Sequence record: PP706156.1
Direction: 5' to 3' (one strand)
DNA: 51,689 nucleotides
Origin: Klebsiella phage LAPAZ
Part shown: positions 10,285-33,492 of the stretch, piece after piece
How positions within the stretch are numbered: position 1 is the first letter of the stretch
Layout: each line of letters opens with the position of its first letter
Made by a program: the position numbers and the translations under genes
The notes under the pieces: generated by a model
What the model was told of the DNA's origin: nothing
What the model saw: the letters and a program-made list of their open reading frames with translations, nothing else
Databases searched by the model: none

Positions 10285-10329
10285 ACTATATCAAATGGCC
10301 TTGCGGAAGTTTTAGCAAAAAGTGCTATT
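10285..10329 (-). promoter_or_regulatory. Conserved promoter cassette (box AATAGCACTTTTTGCTAAAA, 22-nt hairpin spacer, -10 TATAGT)
   Basis: Member of the repeat family; exact 22-nt box-to-(-10) spacing. Confidence 0.5.
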
Positions 10330-11077
10330 TGCCGTCGCGCCACAAACTAACCAGGGCGTCGGCCATCTGGCGGAGAACTTTCGCATGGGTCTGCGCATCA
10401 TCACCTTCCGGCGTGCGCATGGCTTCACGGATTTTCTCGATCGTGTTGTGGGCGGCGTTAAGCTCTGACTCAAGCTCTTTAACCCGGTCAGCGAGCGAGG
10501 CTTCTTTCGTGCCTTCCGGTTTCACGATCATCGACCGCGACAGCATACCCAGGGCTGCAACTGCATCGCTTGCCGACTTCACGCCCTCTTTGAAGTGCGC
10601 GGATTTTTCAGCGCCGATCTTAAATCCACGTGCAACGCCCCGCGACTCATCCCGCCCGAACATGTTCAGCACGCGCTCGGCCAGGGCTTCCAGATCCTGA
10701 TCTTTGTCGCGTTCGTGGGCCTTCAGGTCGGCAAAGAACAGGGGCGACTCAGTGGAGGTGATGCCGCCGAACATTGACGCCGAAGTGTGGATGGGATATT
10801 GCATCGCGCCGCCCACTAACCCGCCGAAGGAGAGTTCGCCACCAGCGAAACAGTTGTTGATTTGCAACTCGATGCTGAACTGACCGCCGCCGATGTAGTG
10901 CGAGTTGCGCGGGTTGACCGCGTACATGTTGCCTTCGTCATCGGTGATTTTGTACAGTGAATCCCCGGTGTATTTGGTGAAAGGCTCGGCCTCATAGCGC
11001 TTGCCTTTGGTGAATTTCGCGCCCACGCCAGCGGGAGAATCAGCGTTCGGGGTCAGGATGAATTTGTAGGTGCTCAT
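10325..11077 (-). CDS. Hypothetical protein (250 aa; beta-rich N-terminal domain, C-terminal coiled-coil)
   Basis: ATG at 11077 with SD AAAGAGGAAAAA. Preceded by the promoter cassette at 11101..11150. Confidence 0.55.
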   Translation of the reverse strand: MSTYKFILTPNADSPAGVGAKFTKGKRYEAEPFTKYTGDSLYKITDDEGNMYAVNPRNSHYIGGGQFSIELQINNCFAGGELSFGGLVGGAMQYPIHTSASMFGGITSTESPLFFADLKAHERDKDQDLEALAERVLNMFGRDESRGVARGFKIGAEKSAHFKEGVKSASDAVAALGMLSRSMIVKPEGTKEASLADRVKELESELNAAHNTIEKIREAMRTPEGDDAQTHAKVLRQMADALVSLWRDGK

Positions 11078-11106
11078 GATTTTTCCTCTTTGGTTGGTGT
11101 GGGGAT

Positions 11107-11150
11107 AGTATGCACCATCCCCGGACGGCGGTTTTAGCAATTCGTGCTAT
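11107..11150 (-). promoter_or_regulatory. Conserved promoter cassette (box TAGCACGAATTGCTAAAA, hairpin GGGGAT…ATCCCC, -10 CATACT)
   Basis: Member of the repeat family. Near-identical to the 19088 copy. Confidence 0.5.
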
Positions 11151-11638
11151 CAAAGCGCGTCTAGTTCGGCCTCAATGAATTCGTACCACTCGTGGCCGTT
11201 AACTGGATCGTGTTCGGTTCCATGCAGCCAGTCCGTATGCGCGGAACAGAATTCGCCGGATTTGTTGAAATAATAGTCGGCCCATGACCGCGCCCAATCG
11301 CCTACGCCAGCGAACGTGCCGAACTTGCGGATGTATGCGTCGGTGTAACCGCGCTCCTTCGCAATGCGCTTCAGTGCACGAACCAGCAACTTGCGCTGTG
11401 ATGCCTTCGATACTTTCCGCAGGTGGAAAAGCGCGTTTTCCGGCTCGCCACCAACACGGATGGTCAAGTCTTCGTCGGTGTCCAGCGGGTTGACGATGAA
11501 TTCGTTCAGGTATCCGCCCTGGATTACGTGCACCGTGCCTAGTGGTTCGTGAACCTCGACGGCATCGAATACGCAGCCGATAAGATGGCGTTCACGCTCG
11601 CGTGCTGCATTGACAACCATAAGTTTGATGGTGTTCAT
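11150..11638 (-). CDS. Hypothetical protein (162 aa)
   Basis: ATGA overlap with the upstream gene. Its TGA stop lies immediately next to the promoter box. Confidence 0.5.
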   Translation of the reverse strand: MNTIKLMVVNAARERERHLIGCVFDAVEVHEPLGTVHVIQGGYLNEFIVNPLDTDEDLTIRVGGEPENALFHLRKVSKASQRKLLVRALKRIAKERGYTDAYIRKFGTFAGVGDWARSWADYYFNKSGEFCSAHTDWLHGTEHDPVNGHEWYEFIEAELDAL

Positions 11639-11847
11639 TAGCGGATCTCCTCGATCGCGTTCAGGCAGAGTAAGTGGGTCGCGTAGTCAAGATCCGTTTC
11701 GGTTGAGCGCTCGGAATGCTCGCCGCCTGATACGCAGAATCGCACGCTGGGAACCTCGATCTGAAGTTCGGTGCCGTCCTCAAGCTCGATGATGGCTACG
11801 GTATCCTCAGCCAGCATGCTTAACAGGTCGATGATGTGGTCATTCAT
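11638..11847 (-). CDS. Hypothetical protein (69 aa)
   Basis: ATG at 11847 with SD GGAG. First gene after the cassette at 11885..11932. Confidence 0.45.
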   Translation of the reverse strand: MNDHIIDLLSMLAEDTVAIIELEDGTELQIEVPSVRFCVSGGEHSERSTETDLDYATHLLCLNAIEEIR

Positions 11848-11887
11848 GGTGTAACTCCTGATTGGTTTGTTTCGCTTCAGTAACGCC

Positions 11888-11932
11888 ACTTTACCAAATG
11901 ACGTTACGGCAGGTTTAACAAAAAGTGCTATT
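11888..11932 (-). promoter_or_regulatory. Conserved promoter cassette (box AATAGCACTTTTTGTTAAAC, -10 TAAAGT)
   Basis: Member of the repeat family. Confidence 0.5.
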
Positions 11933-12107
11933 CTTTGTCGCCAGTGAATGCGGCCCGACGACCACGGCGGAAGCCGTTAATCTCAGAGAGGCGGCTTACC
12001 CCGATGATAACCATCATCATTCCGATCATTTGCCAGCCATCTTCTTTGGCAACCACCAGACCACCCAGGAACAGAACCCAATACAGTGCAATCATTTTCT
12101 TGCTCAT
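11928..12107 (-). CDS. Small two-pass membrane protein (59 aa). Not in the ORF track, which omits ORFs under 60 aa.
   Basis: ATGA overlap with the upstream gene. Two hydrophobic segments (IALYWVLFLGGLVVA and MIGMMMVIIGV). Its TAG stop lies inside the promoter box GAATAGCAC. Confidence 0.45.
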   Translation of the reverse strand: MSKKMIALYWVLFLGGLVVAKEDGWQMIGMMMVIIGVSRLSEINGFRRGRRAAFTGDKE

Positions 12108-12349
12108 AGTTTCACCTCAAATAAAACGTTGTTTTCATATGGTCGATTGTGGTACATCGCGATCTTCTCATCCGGCATGCGGCACGCCAGCCAGAATTCG
12201 CCGTCCTCCGTGGTGGATTCATCGTCCTGCAAAATCCAGACTTCATCCAGGCCAGGGCCGAACCTGGCGTTATACTCCTTGCCGACGGTGAAGAATGGGG
12301 CCATCGGCGCGTAGCTCGCATGAGTGCAAATTACGGTTACGGTTTCCAT
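12104..12349 (-). CDS. Hypothetical protein (81 aa)
   Basis: ATG at 12349 with SD AAGG. Confidence 0.45.
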   Translation of the reverse strand: METVTVICTHASYAPMAPFFTVGKEYNARFGPGLDEVWILQDDESTTEDGEFWLACRMPDEKIAMYHNRPYENNVLFEVKL

Positions 12350-12360
12350 CACATCTGGCC

Positions 12361-12732: not shown

Positions 12733-12760
12733 GGTAAATCTCCGTTGTTGGTGTGGGATA

Positions 12761-12804
12761 ATTATGCCCGATCCGTTGACCGGGCATTTACCAAAAAGTG
12801 CTAT
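12761..12804 (-). promoter_or_regulatory. Conserved promoter cassette (box AATAGCACTTTTTGGTAAAT, hairpin ATGCCCG…CGGGCAT, -10 CATAAT)
   Basis: Member of the repeat family. Confidence 0.5.
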
Positions 12805-13118
12805 TGCATGGTGCGAAGGTCGATTTGCGATTCTTTCCAGTCAGCGAATGGCTCCATCTCTCCGATTTCCTGCATTTTCGCATCGCAGCGCCCGCAGTCT
12901 ACCCAGGCTTTGTTTACGCCGATAATGCGAACATCTTCGGCGACTGACTCATACGCCCAAATCGCGCCGTCTTCGTCAACGGCAATCGTATTGGCCCACA
13001 CTGGCACGTCGACGGATTTTGCATCGCTGGTGCTGTGGATGTTAATCTGAAACGCCACAACCTGGCGCTGCGCAATGGTGGCAACAACCTTGCCGCCGGA
13101 TTTGATTTCGTTGGTCAT
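12801..13118 (-). CDS. Hypothetical protein (105 aa)
   Basis: ATGA overlap with the upstream gene. Confidence 0.45.
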   Translation of the reverse strand: MTNEIKSGGKVVATIAQRQVVAFQINIHSTSDAKSVDVPVWANTIAVDEDGAIWAYESVAEDVRIIGVNKAWVDCGRCDAKMQEIGEMEPFADWKESQIDLRTMQ

Positions 13119-13330
13119 TATTCGATTACCTTAAAGGTTGCCACGACCGAACCGTTACGGCGTTCGGCGTTGAGGGTTGATTTATTGAAAAAGAACCAGG
13201 TGTTATTACCATGAACCACATCACAGCCGATCGAGCCATGAGGGGTGCGGACGGTAACACCCAGCTCCGCGCTGTACTCAAAGCCAGGGGTGTAGTTGAT
13301 AGTGTTGGAATCGGTGCAACGTAATTTCAT
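13118..13330 (-). CDS. Hypothetical protein (70 aa)
   Basis: Preceded by the cassette at 13355..13405. SD ACGAGG. Confidence 0.45.
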   Translation of the reverse strand: MKLRCTDSNTINYTPGFEYSAELGVTVRTPHGSIGCDVVHGNNTWFFFNKSTLNAERRNGSVVATFKVIE

Positions 13331-13359
13331 GGTGATAGCCTCGTTTGTTGGTATGGGGT

Positions 13360-13405
13360 AACTATACCAGCCTACCCCGATCGAGTTTTAGCAATTCGTG
13401 CTATT
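13360..13405 (-). promoter_or_regulatory. Conserved promoter cassette (box AATAGCACGAATTGCTAAAA, -10 TATAGT inside the GGGGTA…TACCCC hairpin loop)
   Basis: Member of the repeat family. Confidence 0.5.
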
Positions 13406-14263: not shown

Positions 14264-14275
14264 GATTTTTTCTCC

Positions 14276-14488: not shown

Positions 14489-14506
14489 GTTTACGCTCCT
14501 CTGTTT

Positions 14507-14561
14507 CGATGGGGTAATGATAGCGCATCACCCCGGTTGCGTTTTAACAAAAAGTGCTATT
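14507..14561 (-). promoter_or_regulatory. Conserved promoter cassette (box AATAGCACTTTTTGTTAAAA, -10 TATCAT)
   Basis: Member of the repeat family. Confidence 0.5.
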
Positions 14562-15051: not shown

Positions 15052-15083
15052 TGTGGTGCTCCGTTGTTCGTTTCGATGGGGTT

Positions 15084-15128
15084 ACTATAGCAAGCTACCC
15101 CGATCGTGTTTTAACAAAAAGTGCTATT
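15084..15128 (-). promoter_or_regulatory. Conserved promoter cassette (box AATAGCACTTTTTGTTAAAA, -10 TATAGT)
   Basis: Member of the repeat family. Confidence 0.5.
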
Positions 15129-15339: not shown

Positions 15340-15370
15340 GGTTGATGCTCCTCTCGTTGGTGATGTGGTG

Positions 15371-15415
15371 ATAATACCCGATCCCTCTGACCGGGTTTTA
15401 CCAAAAAGTGCTATT
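15371..15415 (-). promoter_or_regulatory. Conserved promoter cassette (box AATAGCACTTTTTGGTAAAA, hairpin ACCCG…CGGGT, -10 TATTAT)
   Basis: Member of the repeat family. Confidence 0.5.
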
Positions 15416-16243: not shown

Positions 16244-16433
16244 GTTTCTCCCCCACATTTGCGGCGTTTGTAAGCGTTTGGTAAGGCCATCTTACTTGCT
16301 CCAGGCCTTGCCGTCAAAGGGTTTGTGCGTGTGTGGTAAGATTCGTAAGCATCCCCCATATATGCCTATACCACCAGGCGGCGGCGGAACATCTAAAATT
16401 TATGGCTCTCGCAAGATGATTCCGGTAGCCATG

Positions 16434-16532
16434 CCGGGAGAAATCTTACCAAACATATATAGATAGAGAGAGTAATAATAATAATATTGTTATTTATCAT
16501 ATACTTATATATCTATTATAGGCTTATATTGG
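16434..16532 (+). repeat. ~100-bp AT-rich element, copy A, flanked by the GGTAAGAT-containing sequence CCGGGAGAAATCTTACC
   Basis: About 85% identical to the reverse complement of 33176..33276. Contains (GA)n and a (TAA)4 run. Confidence 0.8.
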
Positions 16533-16822
16533 TCACTTTTTGTGCAATTTTCAGGTAAGATTTTTCCTCCCCCACATTCCCACACGACGCAAATGTTGGT
16601 GAAACACAAGGCACGTTTTGGCAGGATTCGAACGGCGAATTATGTGCATAGTGCATGCATCTATGCAATTCGTTGCACATCATGAAACACTCCATCATCA
16701 CATTGCACAGAATGAAACAATCACAATCAATCATGAATCGTCAAAAGTAATCACCAGGAAGTCAGATGCAATCACAGCCTATTCCAATATTCCGAATGGA
16801 TGGAATAATCGACAATCGGAGG

Positions 16823-16867
16823 AATAGCACAAATAATCAAAATCTGGCTGGTGGGATCGGGTATAGT
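16823..16867 (+). promoter_or_regulatory. Degenerate promoter cassette (box AATAGCACAAATAATCAAAA, -10 TATAGT) for the rightward early operon
   Basis: Box-to-(-10) spacing of 22 nt is preserved. Leader CATCAACCAATCACGGAG. Confidence 0.45.
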
Positions 16868-16898
16868 CATCACATCAACCAATCACGGAGCAAGCACG

Positions 16899-17538: not shown

Positions 17539-17864
17539 GAATCTTTACCCGTAGTAAGTGGGCCGTGGTTGAGGCTGCGGCGGAGCACAAAGAGCGCAAT
17601 CGTGTGGGGCGCGTTACCTGTCGTGCTACTCAACGTTGGCATGACTACCAGTCCGTCAAAGCGATGGTCGGTCAGTGCCTGGAGTTCGGGGAGTCTGGCG
17701 AGTTCACTATGAACATTTGGCACGAAAGCGCGTCGCATTATCCCCAGCGCGGGATATGGCGATACGGCCATACGGAGTACGAAACCACTCGCGCAACCGT
17801 CACATTTGGCGATCACATCCAGGCCGTGATTTACGGTGATGAAGTTCGGTTCCGCCTGGTGTAA
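17535..17864 (+). CDS. Hypothetical protein (109 aa)
   Basis: ATGA overlap with the upstream gene. Its TAA stop lies next to the promoter box. Confidence 0.45.
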   Translation: MRIFTRSKWAVVEAAAEHKERNRVGRVTCRATQRWHDYQSVKAMVGQCLEFGESGEFTMNIWHESASHYPQRGIWRYGHTEYETTRATVTFGDHIQAVIYGDEVRFRLV

Positions 17865-17908
17865 ATAGCACTTTTTGTTAAAAGCCCAGCGTGGGCTTTT
17901 GCTATTAT
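17865..17908 (+). promoter_or_regulatory. Conserved promoter cassette (box AATAGCACTTTTTGTTAAAA, hairpin GCCCAGCGTGGGC + TTTT, -10 TATTAT). The hairpin doubles as a terminator.
   Basis: Member of the repeat family. Confidence 0.5.
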
Positions 17909-17947
17909 CTCTTCATCGAAACGAAGCAGACAAAAGAGGCAAACATC

Positions 17948-18211
17948 ATGAGCAACGTACATATCCTGACCAAAGAAACTTCCAAAATCATGAGCCTGAT
18001 TTACAAAGCGCAGAAATGCCGCCGTGATAGCAAGTCTTCTAACATTGCAGGTGTACGCGCTTACGGTGAATACCTCGGAGTCATGGCTTGCGATATCAAC
18101 CTGATCTGTGATGCCATCATGGAAAGCAAAAAAGCTGACCTGTTCGATATGCTCGAAGAACTGGCTATTTGGTTCCGCAAAATGGATAAAATTGCTCAGG
18201 GCATCAAATAA
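17948..18211 (+). CDS. Hypothetical protein (87 aa)
   Basis: SD AAGAGG. Downstream of the cassette at 17865..17908. Confidence 0.45.
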   Translation: MSNVHILTKETSKIMSLIYKAQKCRRDSKSSNIAGVRAYGEYLGVMACDINLICDAIMESKKADLFDMLEELAIWFRKMDKIAQGIK

Positions 18212-18252
18212 GCACAAATTGCTAAACGCCGGGCCGCGAGGCCTGGTATCAT
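18207..18252 (+). promoter_or_regulatory. Conserved promoter cassette (box AATAAGCACAAATTGCTAAAC, -10 TATCAT)
   Basis: Member of the repeat family. Confidence 0.5.
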
Positions 18253-18283
18253 TACCACATCGAAACCAATCAGGAGAGCAATC

Positions 18284-18714: not shown

Positions 18715-19092
18715 ATGAGAACAGTTACCATTTCGAACAGCTTTACCTACATGGTCGGCGCGCCGGATGTTGATATCCAGATCTCGCGTGAGATCGCCGC
18801 CCGTGACGTGACGGAAAAGTTTAAGGCGGCGGCAACTGCTGCAATCATCCACTATTACGGGCGTCACCCTGAAGACTTCAAAGCCGACGACACGCCGTTT
18901 GTCGTCAATACGGTTCCCGAAAGCAAGGCGTGGCAAATCAACGACAAGCAGACGGGGTATTTCATCTTCGGTGCAACACCTTGCAGGGTCGACAGCAACG
19001 ATATCGAGGTTCAGAGCCTGGAGGATGCCGCGCCGCGTGTTCAGCGCACAATCTACATCTGCCAGGATTACACGACCTGCGTTCCCGAATAG
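18715..19092 (+). CDS. Hypothetical protein (125 aa)
   Basis: SD GAGG. Its TAG stop lies inside the promoter box. Confidence 0.45.
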   Translation: MRTVTISNSFTYMVGAPDVDIQISREIAARDVTEKFKAAATAAIIHYYGRHPEDFKADDTPFVVNTVPESKAWQINDKQTGYFIFGATPCRVDSNDIEVQSLEDAAPRVQRTIYICQDYTTCVPE

Positions 19093-19132
19093 CACGAATT
19101 GCTAAAACAGAATTTGGGGATGGTGGCATACT
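19088..19132 (+). promoter_or_regulatory. Conserved promoter cassette (box AATAGCACGAATTGCTAAAA, hairpin GGGGAT…ATCCCC, -10 CATACT)
   Basis: Member of the repeat family. Confidence 0.5.
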
Positions 19133-19164
19133 ATCCCCACGCCAACAAACGAAGGAGTTACACA

Positions 19165-19972: not shown

Positions 19973-20665
19973 ATGAAAAAGCGCGTTGTGTGGTGCATGT
20001 TTGACGGTTCCGGGATTATGGGTCTGCCGTGGGCAATTCGCGGTTGCGATGTATATTGCTTTAACGCCGATTCCGGCGACCACGGCGAGTACAAAATCCG
20101 CATGGAGCATGCAAAAATCCAGTATGTCAACATCTGGATTGACAAAGATTTCGACGTGAAGCGCACGATCCTGGGCATCCCGGATCCTGACATTATTTTC
20201 GCTTTCCCGTCCTGCACGCTGTTAGCGCATAGCGGGGTGAAGCACGCCCGGCAGACTCAGGATGTTCTATCAGCCGCCGATGATGCGAAGATGATCGAGC
20301 AATTGGGCGACCAATATAATTGCCCCTGGATGGTAGAAAACCCGGTTGGCAAATTGTCGACGCTTTGGCGCAAGCCGGATTTTTATTTCCACCCTCGCGA
20401 CTTCGGCGGGTATGTTGCGCCGCATGAGGAAGTTTGGCACCCAAAAATGCCGCACTGCGACAATTACACGAAGAAAACGTGCATCTGGCACGGTAACGGA
20501 TTCGTGGAGCCGAAACGTTTATTACCGCCTGAAGGTGTGGAAGGCGTCGATTTCTTTTGGGCGTGGAAATTCCTGGGAGGAAAGTCTGAAAGAACAAAGA
20601 TGCTTCGCTCTATCACTCCGCGCGGATTCGCTCGCGCCGTGTTCCAGGCGAATTTTAATGAATAG
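19973..20665 (+). CDS. Putative DNA (cytosine-5)-methyltransferase-like protein, compact (230 aa)
   Basis: Motif I-like FDGSG. Motif IV-like FPSC (canonical is PCQ). ENV-like WMVENPVGK. SD GGTGAGGTG. Its TAG stop lies in the promoter box. Confidence 0.45.
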   Translation: MKKRVVWCMFDGSGIMGLPWAIRGCDVYCFNADSGDHGEYKIRMEHAKIQYVNIWIDKDFDVKRTILGIPDPDIIFAFPSCTLLAHSGVKHARQTQDVLSAADDAKMIEQLGDQYNCPWMVENPVGKLSTLWRKPDFYFHPRDFGGYVAPHEEVWHPKMPHCDNYTKKTCIWHGNGFVEPKRLLPPEGVEGVDFFWAWKFLGGKSERTKMLRSITPRGFARAVFQANFNE

Positions 20666-20705
20666 CACGAATTGCTAAACGTACCCGCTTAATTGCGGGT
20701 ATAGT
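20661..20705 (+). promoter_or_regulatory. Conserved promoter cassette (box AATAGCACGAATTGCTAAAC, hairpin TACCCGC…GCGGGTA, -10 TATAGT)
   Basis: Member of the repeat family. Confidence 0.5.
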
Positions 20706-20737
20706 TATTCCATCGAAACGCAACGGAGAAAACCAGA

Positions 20738-21558: not shown

Positions 21559-21682
21559 CGGATTCGGGGCCATGCGCCCCGATAACCTAAGCACATTTTG
21601 CAAGTGCGTTTAGATTATCACTGGATCTCGGATTTAAGACGGCTTATCATTAGCCGCACGATTAACCAATCAGGAGCAAGGC

Positions 21683-23254: not shown

Positions 23255-23716
23255 ATGTTTATCCTTGACATTTACCGATTCTGCGAGTCTCGCCGGGAAT
23301 TCACCCGGCAAGATTTTGCGAAGTTCGTTTACATGCACCGCGAATCGCCACGCATGGCAAAAGCCGCCAACGTGTCACACCGTATGTTCGCCTCAATGGT
23401 TTCTAAGGAGTTTTTAGCGCGAAGCTATACGAATGGATACCTGGACGGAAAAAACGGCGTGGTGTGGTGTACTGGCCCGGATAACAGGGAGATTGGATTT
23501 AACTTCCGGTCGTTTGAAGGGATGGACAACAAATACATGTGGGAGATGATGCACATTGAGCAACTCGACGATGAAGCCCTATTCGGGAAAGCAGGTGGAA
23601 GATCTGATAACGGAGGTTCACAGGATTGTTTGCGTGAATCAGATCACACCAGAAAATTACTTGCGTGCCGCGCTCACCTTGCTATATCAAGGCATGGCCG
23701 CGACAAACACGGTTGA
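23255..23716 (+). CDS. Hypothetical protein (153 aa). The C-terminal third may be out of frame; see finding.
   Basis: SD GAGG. The C-terminus is low-complexity and overlaps a more protein-like +1 frame. Confidence 0.4.
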   Translation: MFILDIYRFCESRREFTRQDFAKFVYMHRESPRMAKAANVSHRMFASMVSKEFLARSYTNGYLDGKNGVVWCTGPDNREIGFNFRSFEGMDNKYMWEMMHIEQLDDEALFGKAGGRSDNGGSQDCLRESDHTRKLLACRAHLAISRHGRDKHG

Positions 23717-24690: not shown

Positions 24691-24915
24691 TTATTTACTC
24701 CTGATCTTCACCGCCGTTTTGATATCCCCGGCTTCCAGCGCTTCACGAAGCGCCTTTGAATCTCGCCAGCGCAACCACGCGCCGAAGGAGCCGAATAGAA
24801 TCATGAAAAATAAACCAATGGCCGCAATGATAAGTTGCCCGGTCGCAGAGCCTGCGAGGGTAACACCGCCGCTACCATTGGTTGCCGCGTTGATGAATTC
24901 CCGCATGATATGCAA
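24691..24915 (-). CDS. Holin (two transmembrane segments, pinholin-like), 74 aa
   Basis: Two hydrophobic segments plus a charged C-terminus. Immediately upstream of the SAR endolysin. Has its own promoter-like TTGGCC-17-CATTAT and a terminator upstream. Confidence 0.6.
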   Translation of the reverse strand: MHIMREFINAATNGSGGVTLAGSATGQLIIAAIGLFFMILFGSFGAWLRWRDSKALREALEAGDIKTAVKIRSK

Positions 24916-24967
24916 CCTCTGTTAGTTAAGTGATAATGCGATGATATATGCGTTGGGCCAAATAAAG

Positions 24968-25000
24968 AACAAAAAAAAGGGAACCTGTTAAGGCTCCCAA
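24968..25000 (-). terminator. Terminator after the kinase gene, before the lysis cassette
   Basis: GGGAGCCTTAACAGGTTCCC followed by T8 on the minus strand. Confidence 0.6.
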
Positions 25001-25040
25001 AGTTTAAGGCGGTGATAATAAAGGCATTACGTAGAGAATA

Positions 25041-25613
25041 TTAATACCCTTCAAAAACCATATCAAGGATTTTTTGCGCGTCGTCTTCCGGTTCGCCAGT
25101 CGTCATATCAAAATCGAATTCGTGATAAGTTTCGCAAATCAGATCCGGGCGGCTAATATGCTTGCGGCTATCACCCTCGAAAGTCATGCCGTCACGATGC
25201 AGGCGGACGACAAAGACGTTTACGCTATCGTGCGCCGCGATGTGCTCTACTTCTTCGTCAAATCCGCCGTCGCTGACGACGCAACTAACAGGCGAATTCA
25301 CGACGGAATCGCAAAGCAACTTGCCGAACTGCTTTTTGCCTAACGTCGGCTTTACGAAATTTTCGCTAATGTGAATCAGGAATTCACGCGGCGAGCGGTC
25401 GCCTAAAAAATCGCACTTGACTTCTTTCCGGCTGCGGTCGTGGTAACGGACGGCGAAGCGGGCAAAGTCGGTTGCACCCAGGATGGCGCGCGCAATGTCA
25501 AACATCGGTGACTTGAAACTCAGGATCCGATACTCCCATTTGCGGGCGATGATTTCCGCGATGGTGTCTTTTCCGATGACCGGCGCGCCGTTGAGGATGA
25601 TTACATTTTTCAT
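25041..25613 (-). CDS. P-loop polynucleotide 5'-kinase domain protein (Pnk kinase half), 190 aa
   Basis: Walker A GAPVIGKDT at the N-terminus. ATGA overlap with the phosphatase ORF. Confidence 0.6.
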   Translation of the reverse strand: MKNVIILNGAPVIGKDTIAEIIARKWEYRILSFKSPMFDIARAILGATDFARFAVRYHDRSRKEVKCDFLGDRSPREFLIHISENFVKPTLGKKQFGKLLCDSVVNSPVSCVVSDGGFDEEVEHIAAHDSVNVFVVRLHRDGMTFEGDSRKHISRPDLICETYHEFDFDMTTGEPEDDAQKILDMVFEGY

Positions 25614-27266: not shown

Positions 27267-27269
27267 AAT

Positions 27270-27347: not shown

Positions 27348-27361
27348 TCTCAACACTCCCG

Positions 27362-27846: not shown

Positions 27847-27876
27847 GGCGTTAGCTCCTGATTGGTTGATGGAACA

Positions 27877-27921
27877 ATAATACCCGCTCGCGGCGGGCAT
27901 TGTTTAGCAATTAGTGCTGTT
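27877..27921 (-). promoter_or_regulatory. Conserved promoter cassette (box AACAGCACTAATTGCTAAAC, hairpin CCCGC…GCGGG, -10 TATTAT)
   Basis: Member of the repeat family. Confidence 0.5.
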
Positions 27922-28147: not shown

Positions 28148-28150
28148 TTT

Positions 28151-28879
28151 TCAGATCCCACGTTTGCGCATGCGCTTTTTAGTTAATGACGGGCAGATTT
28201 CGCTTACAGGGACGTAGAACGTTTTTTGCTCCTCGCCCGGCTTGAGTTTGCGCATGATGAAAATCACGCTGCCCTTGTTGTTGTTGTCGACTGGCTTCCC
28301 GCTTAGGCCGTTGATGAAGGCCAGGCGACCGGATCGGCTTAGTTGCGTTCCGTCTTCATCCTCCGTGACGTCTGCGACAATCCAAATGATCTCAGCCGCT
28401 GCCTTTTGTGCGTCTCGGAACCACGCTGTAGAGTTGTCGCCGGGAAGCAAAATATCGATCTGGTTGTCATGCTCCATCTGCTCAATGGCTTTCAGCACAA
28501 AGGGATCCGGGAACGAGTAAGGAGGGTTAAGCCAGACGTGCTTATTTTTCCCCCACCAGCGCTTGAGGCAATCTGTCTTTTCGTCGTAAAACTTCGGGCA
28601 GACGGTGTTGCTTTCCTCTGCGGCGGCGTCCAGGTCGTATGGCCCGTAACGCTCCTCCATGTAAGCAATAAGGCTGCGATCGGTTGACCACTTGTCGCGG
28701 ACGATATCCGGCGTCTTGCTCCCGGCGTAGCGGTTGCCCGTTACCTGGTAGAATTTATCAGGCTTGACGGCTTGATAGTGTCCGCCAGTGGCAAGCGCGT
28801 TGCCTATGAACGTTTCACGTTCAAGCTGTTCAAACGTCGTGAACGCGTCGTGAGTGTCTTTGTCAGCTATATCTTTCAT
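28151..28879 (-). CDS. dam: DNA N6-adenine methyltransferase (phage Dam family), 242 aa
   Basis: NPPY catalytic motif (WLNPPYS). Phage-type Dam architecture. Confidence 0.75.
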   Translation of the reverse strand: MKDIADKDTHDAFTTFEQLERETFIGNALATGGHYQAVKPDKFYQVTGNRYAGSKTPDIVRDKWSTDRSLIAYMEERYGPYDLDAAAEESNTVCPKFYDEKTDCLKRWWGKNKHVWLNPPYSFPDPFVLKAIEQMEHDNQIDILLPGDNSTAWFRDAQKAAAEIIWIVADVTEDEDGTQLSRSGRLAFINGLSGKPVDNNNKGSVIFIMRKLKPGEEQKTFYVPVSEICPSLTKKRMRKRGI

Positions 28880-28984: not shown

Positions 28985-29016
28985 GATGTTTCTCCTTTCT
29001 TCGTTTCGATGGGAGA

Positions 29017-29061
29017 ATGATACCCGGCTTTCGCCGGGCAGTTTTAACAAAAAGTGCTATT
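29017..29061 (-). promoter_or_regulatory. Conserved promoter cassette (box AATAGCACTTTTTGTTAAAA, hairpin CCCGGC…GCCGGG, -10 TATCAT)
   Basis: Member of the repeat family. Confidence 0.5.
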
Positions 29062-31497: not shown

Positions 31498-31510
31498 GGT
31501 TAATCCTGAT

Positions 31511-31538
31511 TTGTCATTCGCATGGTTGCGTGTATAAT
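31511..31538 (+). promoter_or_regulatory. Near-consensus sigma70 promoter (TTGTCA-16-TATAAT) driving the rightward HTH-primase operon
   Basis: TTGTCA at 31511..31516 and TATAAT at 31533..31538, ~50 nt upstream of ATG 31588. Shares its -10 region with the divergent helicase cassette. Confidence 0.6.
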
Positions 31539-31577
31539 ACAGAGCAAATTTTATCGTGTTTAACAAAAAGTGCTGTG
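31534..31577 (-). promoter_or_regulatory. Promoter cassette for the helicase gene (box CACAGCACTTTTTGTTAAAC, -10 TATTAT). Back-to-back with the rightward sigma70 promoter.
   Basis: Box variant. The -10 overlaps the complement of the plus-strand TATAAT. Confidence 0.45.
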
Positions 31578-31587
31578 AGGTTAAATT

Positions 31588-31989
31588 ATGGAACAAATGG
31601 CAAAGGTAGACAAGCGAACTTTGAACGGCAATAACGGGACGTCACGCGGGAAAGATAAGAAGCCCCGCAAGAAGCCGACAGGCTATTACGTCCTGAAGGA
31701 TGAAGTAAGGGCGGGCCTGACTACCCGGATGGAATTGGTGATCGAGGCATACGGCGGCATCGCCAAAACAGCAAAGGAGTTGGGCGTTAGCATCCAGGTT
31801 GTTCAGCAGTGGATTAAGCGCGGCATGATTTCAGCCGATGGTGCTTACCTGGTTCATAAGAGTTACCGCCGCAATGACTGCAAAGGCTTCAGGGCTTCAT
31901 TTTGCCGCCCGGATCTCAGATTCGACAGCAACGGCAAGCCGATTACGCGCCGCTGCGACCGCCGCGAAATGCTTCGCGTAGTCCGATAG
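31588..31989 (+). CDS. HTH DNA-binding protein (133 aa). Candidate immediate-early regulator.
   Basis: HTH IAKTAKELGVSIQVVQQWIKRG and a basic N-terminus. First gene downstream of a near-consensus sigma70 promoter. SD GAGGT. Confidence 0.55.
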   Translation: MEQMAKVDKRTLNGNNGTSRGKDKKPRKKPTGYYVLKDEVRAGLTTRMELVIEAYGGIAKTAKELGVSIQVVQQWIKRGMISADGAYLVHKSYRRNDCKGFRASFCRPDLRFDSNGKPITRRCDRREMLRVVR

Positions 31990-32009
31990 CACAATTTGAC
32001 TAACTACTA

Positions 32010-32050
32010 AACGCCTACCGGGTTATGATTCTCGCGTGGGCGTTTTTTTT
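32010..32050 (+). terminator. Terminator/attenuator after the HTH gene
   Basis: AACGCC…GGGCGTT hairpin followed by T8. Confidence 0.5.
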
Positions 32051-32066
32051 ATTTGGAGGTTATGAC

Positions 32067-33029
32067 GTGGATTTTTACGACGAAAAAGAGGTTTTGCCAT
32101 ACATGCCGGGGATGTGGCGCGAGGCGCTACAAAATATTTGCGGCATCCACTCCCGCTATTTCAACGGCAAACACCAGGACTGCCCTAACTGCGGCGGTAA
32201 GGATCGCTTCCGCTGGACTGACAAATTAGAGAATCGCGGCGACGGCGGGGCATATTGCAGCGGCTGCGGTGCCGATAAGGGGATCGGATGGTTAATGAAG
32301 TTGAGCGGCGAGCCGTATAGCGAGTGCATCAACATTCTTGGGCGATACCTGGGCAAAGTTCCGCAAGAGTACGTAGTTAAGCGCAACAAGCAGGTTACTC
32401 GCGATAACGGGTACGACTATGGCAAGATGGCAGATCACGATCGCGTCGTGGCGATAATGAACAGAACGGAGGCCGTCGACAGCACGCCTGTAACGCTCTA
32501 TGAGGGCATTGAAAATGAGTTCGTTGAATCATACCGGGTTGGCGTAAAAACCCACGAGAACGGCAGGCAAGAGCTATTTCATGCACTCCCGATGCAACTG
32601 GTGCATGAAGACGGGCCGGACGATGAATACTGCAACATCTTATTCATTGATGAGGAGGGCCGCGAGAAGATGTTAGCTGGCGACCTGACTTTCGGATCGG
32701 TGATCGTAACCAATCAGAGCGAAGGCGGTAACGGGCCAATTTACCTGGCTCGCTCTTGGGTGGAGGCGATGCACTTCAATATCGCAAGCTCGTTTAAGTG
32801 TGACGTGTGGGCATGCATCATCCCGTCCAACGTTGAGATCGTGGCCTACCGATATAAAGGAAAGGGCGGCGGCGAAGGCAAGCGAGAATTGCGAGTAGTA
32901 TGCAGCAGGAAAGATCGGGATATGCTGGCGGCGGCTGAAGAACGCGATATGAAAGTTATCGTGCCGAACAATGACAACTTCAAAGGCGGATTCGAACGAA
33001 AGCTCTACGTGGCATCATCCCTTCTCTGA
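32067..33029 (+). CDS. DNA primase (zinc-ribbon + Toprim-like), ~320 aa from GTG at 32067
   Basis: CPNCGGKDRFRW…CSGCG zinc ribbon. Acidic Toprim-like FIDEEGRE. SD GGAGG 7 nt before the GTG. Confidence 0.65.
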   Translation: MDFYDEKEVLPYMPGMWREALQNICGIHSRYFNGKHQDCPNCGGKDRFRWTDKLENRGDGGAYCSGCGADKGIGWLMKLSGEPYSECINILGRYLGKVPQEYVVKRNKQVTRDNGYDYGKMADHDRVVAIMNRTEAVDSTPVTLYEGIENEFVESYRVGVKTHENGRQELFHALPMQLVHEDGPDDEYCNILFIDEEGREKMLAGDLTFGSVIVTNQSEGGNGPIYLARSWVEAMHFNIASSFKCDVWACIIPSNVEIVAYRYKGKGGGEGKRELRVVCSRKDRDMLAAAEERDMKVIVPNNDNFKGGFERKLYVASSLL

Positions 33030-33137
33030 TTAAAACGTGAACAAATTTTAGGTAAGATTGATAATTTCAGTCTTACCTTTTTTTATGCCCAAAATTCATC
33101 GACTTACCAACTGGTCGACCACTTTAAGTAAGATTAG

Positions 33138-33153
33138 GTAAGATGCATCTTAC
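33138..33153. promoter_or_regulatory. Perfect 16-bp palindrome GTAAGATGCATCTTAC (iteron/operator-like), copy 1
   Basis: Exact palindrome. Repeated at 33391..33406. Begins a ~45-bp direct repeat. Confidence 0.6.
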
Positions 33154-33175
33154 GTAAATTTCGCTCATTTTTTAA

Positions 33176-33276
33176 CCAATATCGCACCATAGAATATATA
33201 TAAGTATATGATATCTAACTATATTATTATTATTACTCTCTCTATATCTCTCTGTGTAGGTAAGATTTTCTCCGGG
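33176..33276 (-). repeat. ~100-bp AT-rich element, copy B (inverted relative to copy A)
   Basis: Reverse complement aligns to 16434..16532, including the flanking GGTAAGATTTTCTCCGGG. Confidence 0.8.
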
Positions 33277-33390
33277 TATATGTATTTTGCTTTGCGATTT
33301 CGGCCCAATTTTCCTGTGAATATTTACCTATAGGCATCTTACCATCTTACCGATTTGGGTTAACCGCATGAAATATATAAAGAAAATCAC

Positions 33391-33406
33391 GTAAGATGCA
33401 TCTTAC
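33391..33406. promoter_or_regulatory. Perfect 16-bp palindrome GTAAGATGCATCTTAC, copy 2
   Basis: Identical to copy 1. Followed by the repeated sequence CTTACGTAAATTTCGCTCA(C/T)TTTTT(G/A)ACCA. Confidence 0.6.
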
Positions 33407-33448
33407 TAAATCTTACGTAAATTTCGCTCACTTTTTGACCAGTTGGCG

Positions 33449-33492
33449 AATAGCACTTTTTGCCTTGCACCCGGAATCGTGATGCGTATACT
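33449..33492 (+). promoter_or_regulatory. Promoter cassette variant (box AATAGCACTTTTTGCCTTGCAC, -10 TATACT) for the exonuclease-ERF-SSB operon
   Basis: Box conserved. Spacing to the -10 is 21-22 nt. Confidence 0.45.

What the first reader, a model, noticed from the sequence alone, without database searches (positions are those of the whole stretch)
10285..33492. At least 17 copies of a ~70-bp promoter cassette: palindromic box TAGCA-N5-TGNTA, exactly 22 nt of GC hairpin, then a -10
The 20-mer AATAGCAC(T/G)(T/A)(T/A)TTG(N)TAAAA recurs on both strands. The 17 annotated copies are at 10310, 11132, 11913, 12785, 13385, 14542, 15109, 15396, 16823, 17865, 18207, 19088, 20661, 27901, 29042, 31558 and 33449, with degenerate copies at ~21587 and ~31990. 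It is always oriented with the downstream gene. It is followed by a 22-nt spacer (21-22 in the 31558 and 33449 copies) whose sequence varies but always forms a 5-7-bp GC-rich hairpin, often ending GATCGGG. Then comes a -10-like hexamer (TATTAT, TATAGT, TATCAT, CATAAT, CATACT or TAAAGT), often with an extended-10 TG. Then a conserved leader (CCCATCGAAAC… or CCACACCAAC…), a Shine-Dalgarno site and an ATG. The box is an inverted repeat (TAGCA N5 TGCTA) whose centre lies about 42 bp upstream of the inferred transcription start. That is the classical class-II activator position, and it displaces a sigma70 -35 element; the 22-nt spacing is incompatible with a normal -35/-10 pair. This points to a phage-specific activator-dependent (middle) promoter class. 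The arrangement is reminiscent of T4 MotA-box promoters and of T4 PeSL mobile regulatory cassettes, but the sequence and geometry are different. The box frequently supplies the stop codon (GAATAGCAC) of the preceding gene, so each small gene is a self-contained cassette.
Basis: partly seen in the sequence, partly recalled or inferred. Interest (0 to 1): 0.85.

Follow-up and report, generated by a model that had tools for sequence, protein, structure and literature searches.

The report
T1-like phage promoter–hairpin intergenic cassettes
About twenty small intergenic cassettes in this T1-like Klebsiella phage each combine the upstream gene's stop codon, an unusual promoter (a conserved 20-bp box exactly 22 bp before the -10 element, with no normal -35) and a hairpin; the box itself is already published as a repeat of unknown function, and this architecture gives that open question a testable answer.

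Summary
The window is a near-complete Klebsiella Webervirus genome (Drexlerviridae, T1-like). It holds 19 co-oriented cassettes between 10.2 and 34.6 kb. Each has the box AATAGCAC-KWW-TTGNTAAAA, then 22 bp (21 bp in three copies), then a TAnnnT/CAnnnT hexamer, an inferred C-1/A+1 start, a leader of about 26 nt, an SD and an ATG.

The box is not new. The 2024 TLS re-annotation paper reports it as a 21-nt repeat of unknown function. What this analysis adds:
- The box sits at -51..-32 of an extended -10-like sigma70 promoter with no canonical -35. The spacing holds in 147 cassettes from nine genomes and also in Pantoea phage AAM37 (Dibbivirus).
- The hairpin is a separate module. 54% straddle the -10, 36% lie in the spacer, the arms are co-adapted within each copy, and the hairpin is mostly missing where no upstream gene reads in. 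It most likely attenuates or terminates upstream transcripts.
- The upstream stop codon lies inside the box, and indel breakpoints cluster at cassettes, as in T4-type PeSLs.

Who reads the box is unresolved. The Cro-like regulator Pir is the best candidate (published T1 reporters), but its HTH is poorly conserved, so a host reader remains a strong rival. "Middle, activator-dependent" is plausible but unproven.

The parts
10249..10329 (-). Cassette 1: box 10310-10329, -10 TATAGT 10285-10290, inferred TSS ~10278. The hairpin straddles the -10. Drives gene 9976-10248.
11078..11151 (-). Cassette 2 (G-type box): box 11132-11151, -10 CATACT 11107-11112. The hairpin GGGGAT..ATCCCC straddles the -10. 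Drives gene 10325-11077.
11848..11932 (-). Cassette 3: box 11913-11932, -10 TAAAGT 11888-11893. The hairpin straddles the -10.
12733..12805 (-). Cassette 4: box 12786-12805, -10 CATAAT 12761-12766. The hairpin lies in the spacer.
13331..13405 (-). Cassette 5 (G-type): box 13386-13405, -10 TATAGT 13361-13366. The arms GGGGTA..TACCCC flank the -10.
14489..14561 (-). Cassette 6: box 14542-14561, -10 TATCAT 14517-14522. The hairpin straddles the -10.
15052..15128 (-). Cassette 7: box 15109-15128, -10 TATAGT 15084-15089. The hairpin straddles the -10.
15340..15415 (-). Cassette 8: box 15396-15415, -10 TATTAT 15371-15376. The hairpin lies in the spacer.
16823..16898 (+). Cassette 9: degenerate box (ATAGCACAAATAATCA) 16823-16842, -10 TATAGT 16862-16867. 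No significant hairpin. It is the first rightward cassette after the AT-rich divergent region.
17864..17947 (+). Cassette 10: box 17864-17883, -10 TATTAT 17903-17908. The spacer hairpin is followed by TTTT, so it looks like a true terminator.
18208..18283 (+). Cassette 11 (A-type, TAAGCAC): box 18208-18227, -10 TATCAT 18247-18252. The spacer hairpin has a GCGA loop.
19088..19164 (+). Cassette 12 (G-type): box 19088-19107, -10 CATACT 19127-19132. The hairpin straddles the -10.
20661..20737 (+). Cassette 13 (G-type): box 20661-20680, -10 TATAGT 20700-20705. The hairpin lies in the spacer.
21587..21682 (+). Degenerate cassette: TAAGCACATTTTGCAAGTG, with TATCAT about 40 nt downstream and a typical AACCAATCAGGAG leader. 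It is preceded by a hairpin and lies upstream of the DUF3987 ATPase gene 21683-23251.
27847..27921 (-). Cassette 14: box (AACAGCACTAATTGCTAAAC) 27902-27921, -10 TATTAT 27877-27882. The hairpin lies in the spacer.
28985..29061 (-). Cassette 15: box 29042-29061, -10 TATCAT 29017-29022. The spacer hairpin is CCCGGC-GAAA-GCCGGG.
31498..31577 (-). Cassette 16 (helicase promoter): box (ACAGCAC..) 31558-31577, 21-nt spacer, -10 TATTAT 31534-31539. No hairpin and no upstream co-oriented gene. Its -10 overlaps the -10 of Ppir face to face.
31511..31538 (+). Ppir: canonical sigma70 promoter TTGTCA-16-TATAAT for the regulator gene. The inverted box lies in its 5'UTR DNA, about 11 nt before the pir ATG.
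   Evidence: same layout in T1 and TLS
31588..31989 (+). pir ortholog (133 aa, phrog_2856). It has a Cro/cI-type HTH fold and is the candidate reader of the box.
   Evidence: T1 experiments in PMC6737242
31985..32066 (+). Cassette 17 (degenerate box ATAGCACAATTTGACT): -10 TATGAT 32024-32029. The hairpin straddles the -10 and is followed by T8, a true terminator after pir. Drives primase.
33449..33525 (+). Cassette 18 (degenerate box, 21-nt spacer): -10 TATACT 33487-33492. Drives recE.
34555..34631 (+). Cassette 19 (not in the finding): degenerate box ACGGCACAAATAGCTAAA, 21-nt spacer, -10 TATAGT 34593-34598. The hairpin GCGCAC..GTGCGC straddles the -10. Drives erf.

Best explanation
Each repeat is a compact intergenic 'stop-promoter-attenuator-leader' cassette. 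This is the standard transcription unit boundary of T1-like phages. It has four layers.

(1) Promoter (shown by sequence statistics, start site inferred). Host sigma70 RNA polymerase uses an extended -10-type element (G-14, TAnnnT) and starts at a conserved C-1/A+1. That gives a leader of about 26 nt with an SD. No -35 hexamer lies at 16-18 bp.

(2) Box (inferred). The invariant 20-bp box AATAGCAC-KWW-TTGNTAAAA occupies -51..-32. Its dyad TAGCA-N5-TGCTA is centred at -42 and always lies 22 (+/-1) bp from the -10. The box replaces the -35 as the docking site of a protein that recruits or stabilises RNA polymerase in class-II fashion, as lambda cI does at PRM, CRP at galP1, and Mor/C in phage Mu. 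The most likely reader is the conserved Cro-fold regulator Pir (window 31588-31989). Pir is itself made from a canonical sigma70 promoter whose -10 overlaps the box-dependent helicase promoter face to face. Pir binding at that box would switch RNA polymerase from Ppir to Phelicase, giving autorepression, and would turn on the other roughly 18 cassettes.

(3) Hairpin (shown statistically, function inferred). The copy-specific hairpin is not part of promoter recognition. It is squeezed into the spacer or around the -10, and it acts on RNA read through from the upstream gene as an attenuator, terminator or 3'-end-protecting structure.

(4) Module boundary (shown as an association). The upstream gene ends inside the box and the cassettes share about 75 bp of similarity. 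They therefore also serve as module boundaries and recombination linkers, like T4-type PeSLs.
For: Motif and spacing
- 13 hits against 0 expected.
- The spacer is 22 nt in 16 of 19 window copies. Across nine genomes from four Drexlerviridae lineages, 147 cassettes have a 21-23 nt spacer, nearly all 22.
- TAnnnT occurs at offset 22 in 87 of 143 copies, against at most 9 at any other offset.

Features not imposed by the search
- G-14 in 101 of 117, A+1 in 102 of 117, C-1 in 88 of 117, median leader 26 nt.
- A canonical sigma70 scan of 10-21.5 kb finds no more than chance (13 against 9.1 expected) and misses the cassettes.
- In orthologous cassettes of five Weberviruses, 3.6% of box columns and 4% of -10 columns vary, against 9.8% in the spacer and 27% in the upstream CDS end.

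Experiments in the literature
- T1 Pdam and Porf65 fragments (150 bp or less) contain such cassettes and were used as GFP promoter reporters in uninfected E. coli. Pir activates Pdam and represses its own promoter (PMC6737242).
- Ppir reads through an inverted box in T1, TLS and the window.

Pir
- It co-occurs with the box in every Drexlerviridae genome examined (830 phage records; 90 protein clusters, all on T1-sized contigs). A 35%-identical Pir-like protein is present in AAM37, which also has the cassettes.

Hairpins
- 90 of 100 unique cassettes fold. Native MFE is -13.4 kcal/mol against -9.3 for spacer/downstream chimeras (p = 8e-12). For -10-straddling hairpins the figures are -15.1 against -7.6.
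- Median MFE is -14.5 with an upstream co-oriented gene (n = 121) and -7.75 without (n = 26), p = 9e-5.
- A cassette preceded by a canonical terminator has no internal hairpin.

Module boundaries
- The stop codon is the box TAG in 77 of 126 cassettes.
- 15 of 34 indel breakpoints lie at cassettes, against 3.65 expected.
Against: - No 5'-end mapping exists for any T1-like phage in the searched literature, so the start site and the -42 position are inferred.
- The Pir HTH helices 2-3 are the least conserved part of the protein, while the box is invariant across lineages whose Pir proteins are only 45-70% identical, and 35% in AAM37. Phage regulator and operator pairs normally co-diverge.
- Porf65, which has a perfect box, did not respond to Pir. 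Pir also affects Phol and T1 PrecE, which have no box.
- The reporters work in uninfected cells, so at least some box promoters do not strictly need a phage protein.
- The box is asymmetric in conservation: the left TAGCA is invariant, the right TGNTA is variable, and the flanks are unequal.
- AAM37 has no box between its helicase and pir-like genes.
- Most hairpins lack a U-tract, so efficient intrinsic termination is doubtful.
- The breakpoint enrichment is partly explained by cassettes lying at gene junctions.
Confidence: 0.55

Rival explanations
1. The box is read by the host, not by a phage protein. It would be a strong upstream promoter element for unmodified host machinery. Candidates are RNA polymerase itself (alpha-CTD on the T/A tracts, sigma region 4 on the -35-like TTGNTA) or an abundant, conserved host DNA-binding protein such as Lrp. 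The cassettes would then be constitutive early promoters, and Pir would only fine-tune a few of them.
For: - The box is as invariant as the host-read -10 (3.6% against 4% variable columns). It is identical across four Drexlerviridae lineages and a Dibbivirus, while the Pir HTH diverges.
- Reporters with box promoters are active in uninfected E. coli, and Porf65 is independent of Pir.
- Within TTGNTA only the TTG is invariant, as in -35 hexamers.
- The box TAGCAC-TTT-TTGCTA matches the E. coli Lrp consensus yAGhAwATTwTdCTr at 13 of 15 positions. Both outer half-sites match perfectly and the 15-bp geometry is the same (consensus quoted in PMC5554404).
- The first cassettes of operons also carry boxes.
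Against: - A 22-bp gap puts TTG 5 bp, about half a helical turn, too far for sigma region 4.
- The T/A tracts are about 8 bp closer to the -10 than a UP element would be, and UP elements do not need the invariant GC-containing ATAGCAC.
- The Lrp-like conservation profile does not fit. Position 13 (C in the Lrp consensus) is the variable N, and C-44 is invariant where Lrp has W.
- No literature link between lrp and Drexlerviridae was found.
- A separate canonical promoter for pir suggests a cascade.
Confidence: 0.3
2. The boxes are repressor sites of the 'stoperator' kind, as the TLS paper suggested. A phage protein, for example Pir or T1 Orf65, would bind them to silence or roadblock transcription, for instance in the carrier or pseudolysogenic state reported for T1.
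For: - The boxes are oriented with transcription and sit in short intergenic regions, as in L5 (PMC11447400).
- The box in the pir 5'UTR DNA fits the reported repression of Ppir by Pir and by Orf65.
- Box-only copies without a -10 occur in late regions of T1 and TLS.
Against: - The fixed 22-bp phasing to a -10, with a variable spacer sequence, is a promoter-geometry constraint that a roadblock does not need.
- The site lies upstream of the polymerase footprint core, at -42, not over the -10 or +1.
- Pir activates the box promoter Pdam.
Confidence: 0.07
3. The box plus hairpin is primarily an RNA element in read-through transcripts. It could be a processing site (RNase E or similar), a terminator, or a nut-like antitermination signal. 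On this view the -10-like hexamer is incidental.
For: - It lies immediately after stop codons and is always in the sense orientation.
- A conserved single-stranded A/U-rich segment is followed by a stable hairpin with GNRA-type loops in several copies.
- Hairpin presence tracks the presence of an upstream gene.
Against: - It does not explain G-14, TAnnnT, C-1/A+1 or the exact 22-bp spacing.
- Hairpins move relative to the box (in the spacer, around the -10, in the leader, or before the box), so box and hairpin are not one RNA motif.
- Cassettes at operon starts keep the box but lose the hairpin.
- No Rfam family matches.
Confidence: 0.06
4. These are sigma54 promoters, because the box resembles TGGCAC-N5-TTGC, served by a phage enhancer-binding ATPase.
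For: - There is a superficial resemblance between TAGCAC-N3-TTGC and the -24/-12 consensus.
- The TLS paper mentions 'enhancer-binding sequences'.
- An ATPase gene lies at 21683-23251.
Against: - The -24 position has AG, not GG.
- The spacing is 2 bp too short.
- The 'C' of the -12 GC is the variable N.
- The ATPase is a DUF3987 helicase-type protein, not a bEBP.
- A sigma70-type -10 is conserved downstream.
Confidence: 0.01

Closest known systems
The 21-nt intergenic direct repeat of T1-like phages (aaATAGCACnnnTTGnTAAAA), described for TLS and noted for T1, Rtp and Rogue1 (PMC11447400)
   Same: It is the same sequence, with the same orientation relative to transcription, the same distance of about 76 nt to the start codon, and the same A/T/G subtypes. 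The window copies are members of this repeat family.
   Different: The paper leaves the function open, suggesting stoperators, enhancer sites or UP elements, and found only three sigma70 promoters. It does not report the fixed 22-bp spacing to a -10, the hairpin module, the stop-codon overlap, or the occurrence outside Drexlerviridae.
PeSL (promoter-early stem-loop) cassettes of T4-type phages RB49 and phi1 (PMC2839356)
   Same: - Both are roughly 75-100-bp intergenic cassettes that begin with the upstream stop codon in an A/T-rich stretch.
- Both contain a host-type promoter and a stem-loop placed between the upstream element and the -10 or overlapping the -10, often GGGG..CCCC, followed by an SD and ATG.
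- Both flank small ORFans and coincide with indel boundaries.
   Different: - PeSLs have a canonical -35/-10 sigma70 promoter. Here the -35 is replaced by a 20-bp box 22 bp from the -10.
- The sequences are unrelated and the phage family is different.
- Promoter activity, terminator activity and mini-circles were shown for PeSLs and not here.
Class-II activator-dependent promoters: CRP at galP1 (-41.5, extended -10, no -35), lambda cI at PRM (-42, contacts sigma region 4), Mu Mor/C (about -51 to -33). These positions are recalled from established knowledge.
   Same: - A dyad site is centred at about -42 and covers about -51..-32.
- The -35 is absent or weak.
- An extended -10 is present in many copies.
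- The candidate reader has the Cro/cI fold.
   Different: - The activator is unproven and the box is strongly asymmetric.
- About 20 copies per genome have an invariant sequence.
- At least some copies act without the phage protein.
T4 MotA/AsiA middle promoters
   Same: A phage-specific upstream box containing TGCT replaces the -35 in front of a sigma70 -10.
   Different: The MotA box is centred at -30, 11-13 bp from the -10. Here the TGNTA ends 22 bp upstream, with the centre at -42 overall. No MotA- or AsiA-like protein turned up among the proteins scanned.

Membership tests
T1-like 21-nt intergenic repeat (TLS 'DR' elements) | Consensus aaATAGCACnnnTTGnTAAAA | tested here: met
   13 copies with at most 2 mismatches and 19 with a looser match. 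The per-position counts match.
T1-like 21-nt intergenic repeat (TLS 'DR' elements) | Intergenic, in the direction of transcription, about 76 nt upstream of the start codon, with subgroups AAA/TTT/GAA | tested here: met
   All 19 copies are co-oriented. The distance from box start to ATG is 73-85 nt. TTT, GAA and AAA/TAA types are all present.
PeSL cassettes (T4-type phages) | Canonical sigma70 promoter (-35 and -10 at about 17 bp) | tested here: not met
   There is no -35 at 16-18 bp; that slot reads AAAACN. The generic scan misses the cassettes.
PeSL cassettes (T4-type phages) | Stable stem-loop between the promoter elements or overlapping the -10 | tested here: met
   90 of 100 unique cassettes fold: 36 in the spacer and 54 straddling the -10.
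PeSL cassettes (T4-type phages) | The cassette starts at the upstream stop codon and ends at the SD and ATG, and is associated with variable ORFans and indel boundaries | tested here: met
   The stop codon lies in the box in 16 of 19 window copies. 15 of 34 breakpoints lie at cassettes against 3.65 expected (part of this is a gene-junction effect).
PeSL cassettes (T4-type phages) | Demonstrated promoter and terminator activity, and mini-circle formation | not testable with these tools
   Only indirect evidence exists: the T1 Pdam and Porf65 reporters (PMC6737242).
Class-II activator-dependent sigma70 promoter | Activator site centred near -41.5/-42 and overlapping the -35 region, with a weak or absent -35 | tested here: met
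   The dyad centre is at -42 relative to the conserved C-1/A+1. The start site is inferred, not mapped.
Class-II activator-dependent sigma70 promoter | Transcription depends on a bound activator that contacts RNA polymerase | tested here: inconclusive
   In the literature, Pir raises Pdam but not Porf65, and the reporters work in uninfected cells. Binding has never been tested. The Pir HTH is poorly conserved.
T4 MotA-box middle promoter | MotA box centred at -30, 11-13 bp upstream of the -10 | tested here: not met
   The box ends 19-22 bp upstream of the -10 and is centred at -42.
sigma54 promoter | GG at -24 and GC at -12, separated by exactly 10 nt | tested here: not met
   The box has AG instead of GG, the spacing is 2 bp shorter, and the C of GC is the variable N.
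Lrp binding site (E. coli) | Match to yAGhAwATTwTdCTr | tested here: inconclusive
   The match is 13 of 15 for the T-type box and 11-12 of 15 for the G and A types. The outer half-sites match perfectly, but the conservation profile differs. Binding was not tested.
Intrinsic (rho-independent) terminator | GC-rich hairpin immediately followed by a U-tract | tested here: not met
   Only the hairpins at 17865 and 31986 are followed by a T-run. The terminator scan gives 16 against 13 expected.
Mycobacteriophage L5-type stoperator | Asymmetric repressor site, oriented with transcription, acting as a block inside transcription units | tested here: inconclusive
   The orientation criterion is met. However, the fixed phasing to a -10 and the activation of Pdam argue for a promoter role. 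Only the box in the pir 5'UTR fits a blocking role.

The most novel reading that the evidence does not exclude
T1-like phages, and at least one unrelated Pantoea phage, may run almost their whole early and DNA-metabolism programme from a distinct promoter class. In this class a 20-bp element centred at -42 replaces the -35. It would be read by the Pir family, a previously uncharacterised group of Cro-fold proteins whose conserved determinants lie outside the HTH: an N-terminal basic arm and an invariant FCRPDL-x-FD motif. Pir would recruit or reposition sigma70 polymerase at an obligatory 22-bp spacing. The same promoter-attenuator cassette would be exchanged between phage families as a mobile regulatory module.
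Probability: 0.25. Interest if true: 0.7.

Novelty: new variant of a known kind. Interest (0 to 1): 0.55.

Why it matters
T1 is one of the seven classical T phages, and Drexlerviridae, including the Klebsiella Weberviruses, are heavily used in phage therapy. Even so, their transcription programme is essentially unmapped.

[quoted passage not shown] Placing the box at -51..-32 of an extended -10 promoter, with an obligatory 22-bp spacing, turns that question into simple experiments: spacer and box mutants, in vitro transcription with and without Pir, and 5'-end mapping.

The result has three practical uses. It gives a rule for annotating about 15-20 promoters in each of the several hundred related phage genomes in the collection searched. 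It identifies compact promoter-attenuator parts for phage engineering. It also suggests a PeSL-like mechanism for gene shuffling in a second, unrelated phage group.

Tried and rejected
- **Sigma54 reading of the box.** Rejected because of AG in place of GG, spacing 2 bp too short, and a variable C at -12.
- **Sigma32 reading of the CCCCAT leader.** Rejected because the -35-like element lies about 30 nt away.
- **Alternative -10 at 17 bp after TTGNTA.** None exists.
- **CRP, Fis, IHF, DnaA and ArcA consensus comparisons (from memory).** No convincing match. Only Lrp gave a notable match, and it is kept as a low-probability lead.
- **T1 Orf65 as a universal box reader.** Rejected because it has no homolog in the window.
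- **The two other conserved 'HTH' proteins (window 21121-21558 and 23255-23716).** They have no Pfam hits, flank a DUF3987 helicase-type ATPase, and are absent from AAM37, which has the cassettes. They are unlikely readers.
- **Cruciform or hairpin promoter (N4-like) idea.** Rejected because hairpin position varies and hairpin-less cassettes exist at operon starts.
- **Genome-wide scan of bacterial genomes for box-19N-TAnnnT.** It gave only scattered single hits plus two conserved loci (Vibrio, Xenorhabdus) that are compatible with chance.
- **Literature searches for TSS mapping or transcriptomics of Drexlerviridae.** Nothing was found.
- **Rfam and tRNA scans of the window.** No hits.

Full report
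**What the window is.** The 51.7-kb window is a near-complete genome of a Klebsiella Webervirus (Drexlerviridae, T1-like). It is 94-97% identical over 10-22 kb to phages such as vB_KvaS-KLPN6, vB_KpnS_Call and KA1-2. The cassette region (10.2-34.6 kb) holds the small early ORFs and the DNA-metabolism genes: methylases, a DUF3987 ATPase, helicase, primase, RecE/Erf/SSB, kinases and the lysis genes. The genes are arranged in divergent blocks around an AT-rich region at about 16.5 kb and around the helicase/regulator junction at about 31.55 kb.

**Checking the observation.** The 20-mer AATAGCACKWWTTGNTAAAA, allowing up to 2 mismatches, occurs 13 times against 0 expected in shuffles. With a looser match and a required -10 there are 19 cassettes, all co-oriented with the downstream gene.
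- The distance from the end of TTGNTA to a TAnnnT/CAnnnT hexamer is 22 nt in 16 copies and 21 nt in 3.
- The '~21587' copy is degenerate, with its -10 about 40 nt away.
- The observation therefore stands, with one correction. The hairpin is not always 'the 22-nt spacer': in about half the copies its arms flank the -10, and two copies have no hairpin.

**It is a known repeat.** The 2024 re-annotation of phage TLS (PMC11447400) reports a 21-nt direct repeat, aaATAGCACnnnTTGnTAAAA, at 21 sites. The sites lie in the direction of transcription, about 76 nt upstream of start codons, with A, T and G subtypes. Similar repeats are noted for T1, Rtp and Rogue1.
- The authors found only three sigma70-like promoters with a TTGACA-N15-19-TATAAT search.
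- They offered stoperators, enhancer sites or UP elements as possibilities, and listed the repeat's function as an open question.
- I found no other description and no 5'-end mapping for any Drexlerviridae phage.

**Anatomy across the family.** I scanned nine complete genomes: five Weberviruses, T1, TLS, a Hanrivervirus and a Braunvirinae member. I also scanned IMG/VR fragments.
- Each genome has 15-18 box-plus-(-10) cassettes.
- All 147 have a 21-23 nt spacer, and the per-genome tallies put nearly all of them at exactly 22.
- In 143 unique copies, TAnnnT sits at offset 22 in 87, against at most 9 at any other offset.
- Features the search did not impose are strongly conserved in 117 unique 22-nt cassettes: G at -14 in 101, T at -15 in 55, A at +1 in 102, C at -1 in 88, and a median leader of 26 nt before the start codon.
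- This is the signature of an extended -10-type sigma70 promoter with a defined start.
- With that start, the box covers -51..-31 and the dyad TAGCA-N5-TGNTA is centred at -42. The normal -35 slot reads AAAACN.
- A generic sigma70 and terminator scan of 10-21.5 kb finds nothing above chance and misses the cassettes.
- In orthologous cassettes of five Weberviruses, the box (3.6% variable columns) and the -10 (4%) are the most constrained parts. The spacer varies at 9.8% and the upstream CDS end at 27%.
- A fixed spacer length combined with a variable spacer sequence is the strongest argument that the box and the -10 work together on DNA as one promoter.

**The hairpin is a separate module.** Of 100 unique cassettes, 54 have a hairpin whose arms flank the -10, 36 have one wholly in the spacer (often with GNRA-type loops), and 10 have a weak one or none.
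- The arms are co-adapted within each copy. Native folding energy averages -13.4 kcal/mol, against -9.3 for chimeras that join the spacer of one cassette to the downstream half of another (p = 8e-12). For the -10-straddling class the figures are -15.1 against -7.6.
- Hairpin strength depends on context. Median MFE is -14.5 when a co-oriented gene ends at the box (n = 121) and -7.75 when none does (n = 26; p = 9e-5).
- The helicase cassette, which diverges from pir, lacks a hairpin in all Weberviruses, in TLS and in E6.
- A Braunvirinae cassette preceded by a canonical terminator has no internal hairpin. In other copies the hairpin sits in the leader or spans the whole leader.
- Only 2-3 window hairpins are followed by a T-run.
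- A structure that can sit anywhere around the promoter, and that is needed only when something transcribes into it, most plausibly acts on the upstream read-through RNA as an attenuator, terminator or 3'-end protector. It is not a promoter recognition element.
- This is what was shown experimentally for the stem-loops of T4-type PeSL cassettes. Those likewise lie between the promoter elements or over the -10 and are often GGGG..CCCC (PMC2839356).

**Module boundaries.** The upstream ORF's stop codon is the TAG inside the box in 77 of 126 cassettes, and it lies somewhere in the box in 16 of 19 window copies. Between the window and four other Weberviruses, 15 of 34 indel or replacement breakpoints fall within 30 nt of a cassette, against 3.65 expected at random. 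Part of this is simply because cassettes lie at gene junctions. The same cassettes also occur in Pantoea phage vB_PagM_AAM37 (genus Dibbivirus, outside Drexlerviridae). There are at least 10 copies, with the box, a 22-nt spacer, TATTAT/TAATAT, hairpins and the TAG stop.

**Who reads the box?** Experimental data exist for T1 (Laganenka et al. 2019, PMC6737242). Fragments of 150 bp or less upstream of dam and of orf65 were fused to gfp and measured in uninfected E. coli with and without the phage regulators. Both fragments contain a perfect cassette.
- T1 Orf23, 'Pir', is 54% identical to the window protein 31588-31989.
- Pir activates Pdam and Phol. It represses its own promoter and PrecE.
- Porf65 is independent of Pir and is activated by Orf65.
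- cAMP-CRP inhibits Ppir, Pdam and PrecE.

In T1, TLS and the window, Ppir is a canonical sigma70 promoter. In the window it is TTGTCA-16-TATAAT at 31511-31538. Its -10 overlaps the -10 of the box-dependent helicase promoter face to face, and it transcribes through the inverted box just before the pir SD. A box-bound protein would therefore favour the helicase promoter and shut Ppir, which matches the reported autorepression.

- Such proteins bind as dimers to half-sites 10 bp apart, which is the geometry of TAGCA-N5-TGCTA.
- Pir homologs are found on T1-sized contigs throughout, and a 35%-identical short version is present in AAM37.

Evidence that does not fit:
- The HTH helices, including the recognition helix, are the least conserved part of Pir, while the box is invariant.
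- The conserved parts are instead an N-terminal basic arm (DKRTxNGNNGTRRGKDKKxRKR) and a C-terminal FCRPDLxFD motif.
- Porf65 did not respond to Pir, and Pir affects promoters that have no box.
- Orf65 has no homolog in the window, so it cannot be the general reader.

A host reader is therefore a serious rival. Points for and against it:
- The TTG of TTGNTA is conserved like a -35, but it lies 5 bp too far from the -10.
- The T/A tracts resemble a UP element, but they are misplaced, and the invariant ATAGCAC would be unexplained.
- The box matches the E. coli Lrp consensus yAGhAwATTwTdCTr at 13 of 15 positions with perfect outer half-sites. However, the pattern of conserved and variable positions does not fit, and no literature link exists.
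- A scan of about 186,000 bacterial genomes for box-19N-TAnnnT gave scattered single hits. None of the matches examined was from Enterobacteriaceae, and the two conserved loci found (Vibrio, Xenorhabdus) are compatible with chance.

**Conclusion.** The claims that they form a 'middle', strictly activator-dependent class, and that the hairpin is an integral spacer feature, are not supported as stated. The element is a member of an already published repeat family, so the novelty lies in the architecture and mechanism. I rate it a new variant of known kinds (PeSL-type cassettes combined with class-II or extended -10 promoters). It is of moderate to high interest because it makes a stated open question about a classical phage group directly testable.

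Noticed in passing
window 31511-31577 (and T1 L002 36432-36524, TLS L003 35833-35920): The canonical pir promoter (TTGTCA-16-TATAAT, + strand) and the box-dependent helicase promoter (- strand) have overlapping, face-to-face -10 hexamers. The box lies in the pir 5'UTR DNA, 10-12 nt from the pir ATG. The layout is conserved in three genera and looks like a built-in genetic switch.
   Followed up: partly
window 16250-16850: This AT-rich divergent region between the leftward and rightward early blocks carries other repeats. GGTAAGATT occurs three times (as TGGTAAGAT it resembles an extended -10), CCCCCACATT occurs twice, and there is an (AAT)n run. A leftward TTGACG-17-TAAGAT match lies at 16317-16289. 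These are possibly the immediate-early promoters or an origin.
   Followed up: partly
L249 (Pantoea phage vB_PagM_AAM37, NC_048766 24000-49990), e.g. 20321, 22075, 22346, 13166, 8331: A phage of a different genus (Dibbivirus), outside Drexlerviridae, carries at least 10 cassettes with the same box, the same 22-nt spacing, hairpins and the TAG stop. It also has a short (73-83 aa) Pir-like protein that keeps the FCRPDL motif but lacks the N-terminal arm.
   Followed up: partly
T1 L002 15069(-), 18833(-), 25021(+), 8362(+); TLS L003 15025(-), 24908(+): Box copies without a proper -10 occur in the late regions, and some are conserved in position between T1 and TLS. Two are antisense to capsid or tail genes. 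Others lie directly in front of the SD and ATG of the tail-fibre and terS genes. Possible roles are antisense promoters or regulatory sites of another kind.
   Followed up: no
Pir family alignment A3 (window 31588-31989 as reference): The conservation pattern is unusual for an HTH regulator. Helices 2-3 are the most variable part. An N-terminal disordered basic arm (DKRTxNGNNGTRRGKDKKxRKR, AT-hook-like) and a C-terminal GxRASFCRPDLxFDxNGK motif are nearly invariant.
   Followed up: partly
window cassettes 12787, 13387, 15110, 15397, 16824 (spacer about -21..-18): Five of the 19 spacers contain GATC (GATCGGG/GATCGGGG). The phage encodes a homolog of the T1 Dam methylase (window 28151-28879), so promoter methylation state could matter.
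   Followed up: no
L166, L215, L220, L227 (Xenorhabdus spp.) and L134, L148, L156, L178 etc. (Vibrio spp.): Two conserved bacterial loci match box-22 nt-TAnnnT. The first is a prophage-like Xenorhabdus locus: AATAGCACTTTTTGCTAAAA-N19-TATAAT in front of a hairpin-plus-T-run sequence that looks like a small RNA (inferred, no Rfam match), with a C4 antisense RNA about 1.3 kb away. The second is a site about 450 nt upstream of a Vibrio porin gene. Both are compatible with chance, at one event each, but would be worth a look if a host factor reads the box.
   Followed up: partly
box, all copies: The 15-bp core TAGCAC-TTT-TTGCTA matches the E. coli Lrp SELEX consensus yAGhAwATTwTdCTr at 13 of 15 positions, with both outer half-sites perfect.
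   Followed up: partly
window 24892-25056 (upstream of holin), T1 L002 42728-42892, TLS L003 41718-41882: A conserved (T)TATCACC motif followed by a strong terminator precedes the holin gene in all three genera. T1 Phol is Pir-activated but has no box.
   Followed up: no
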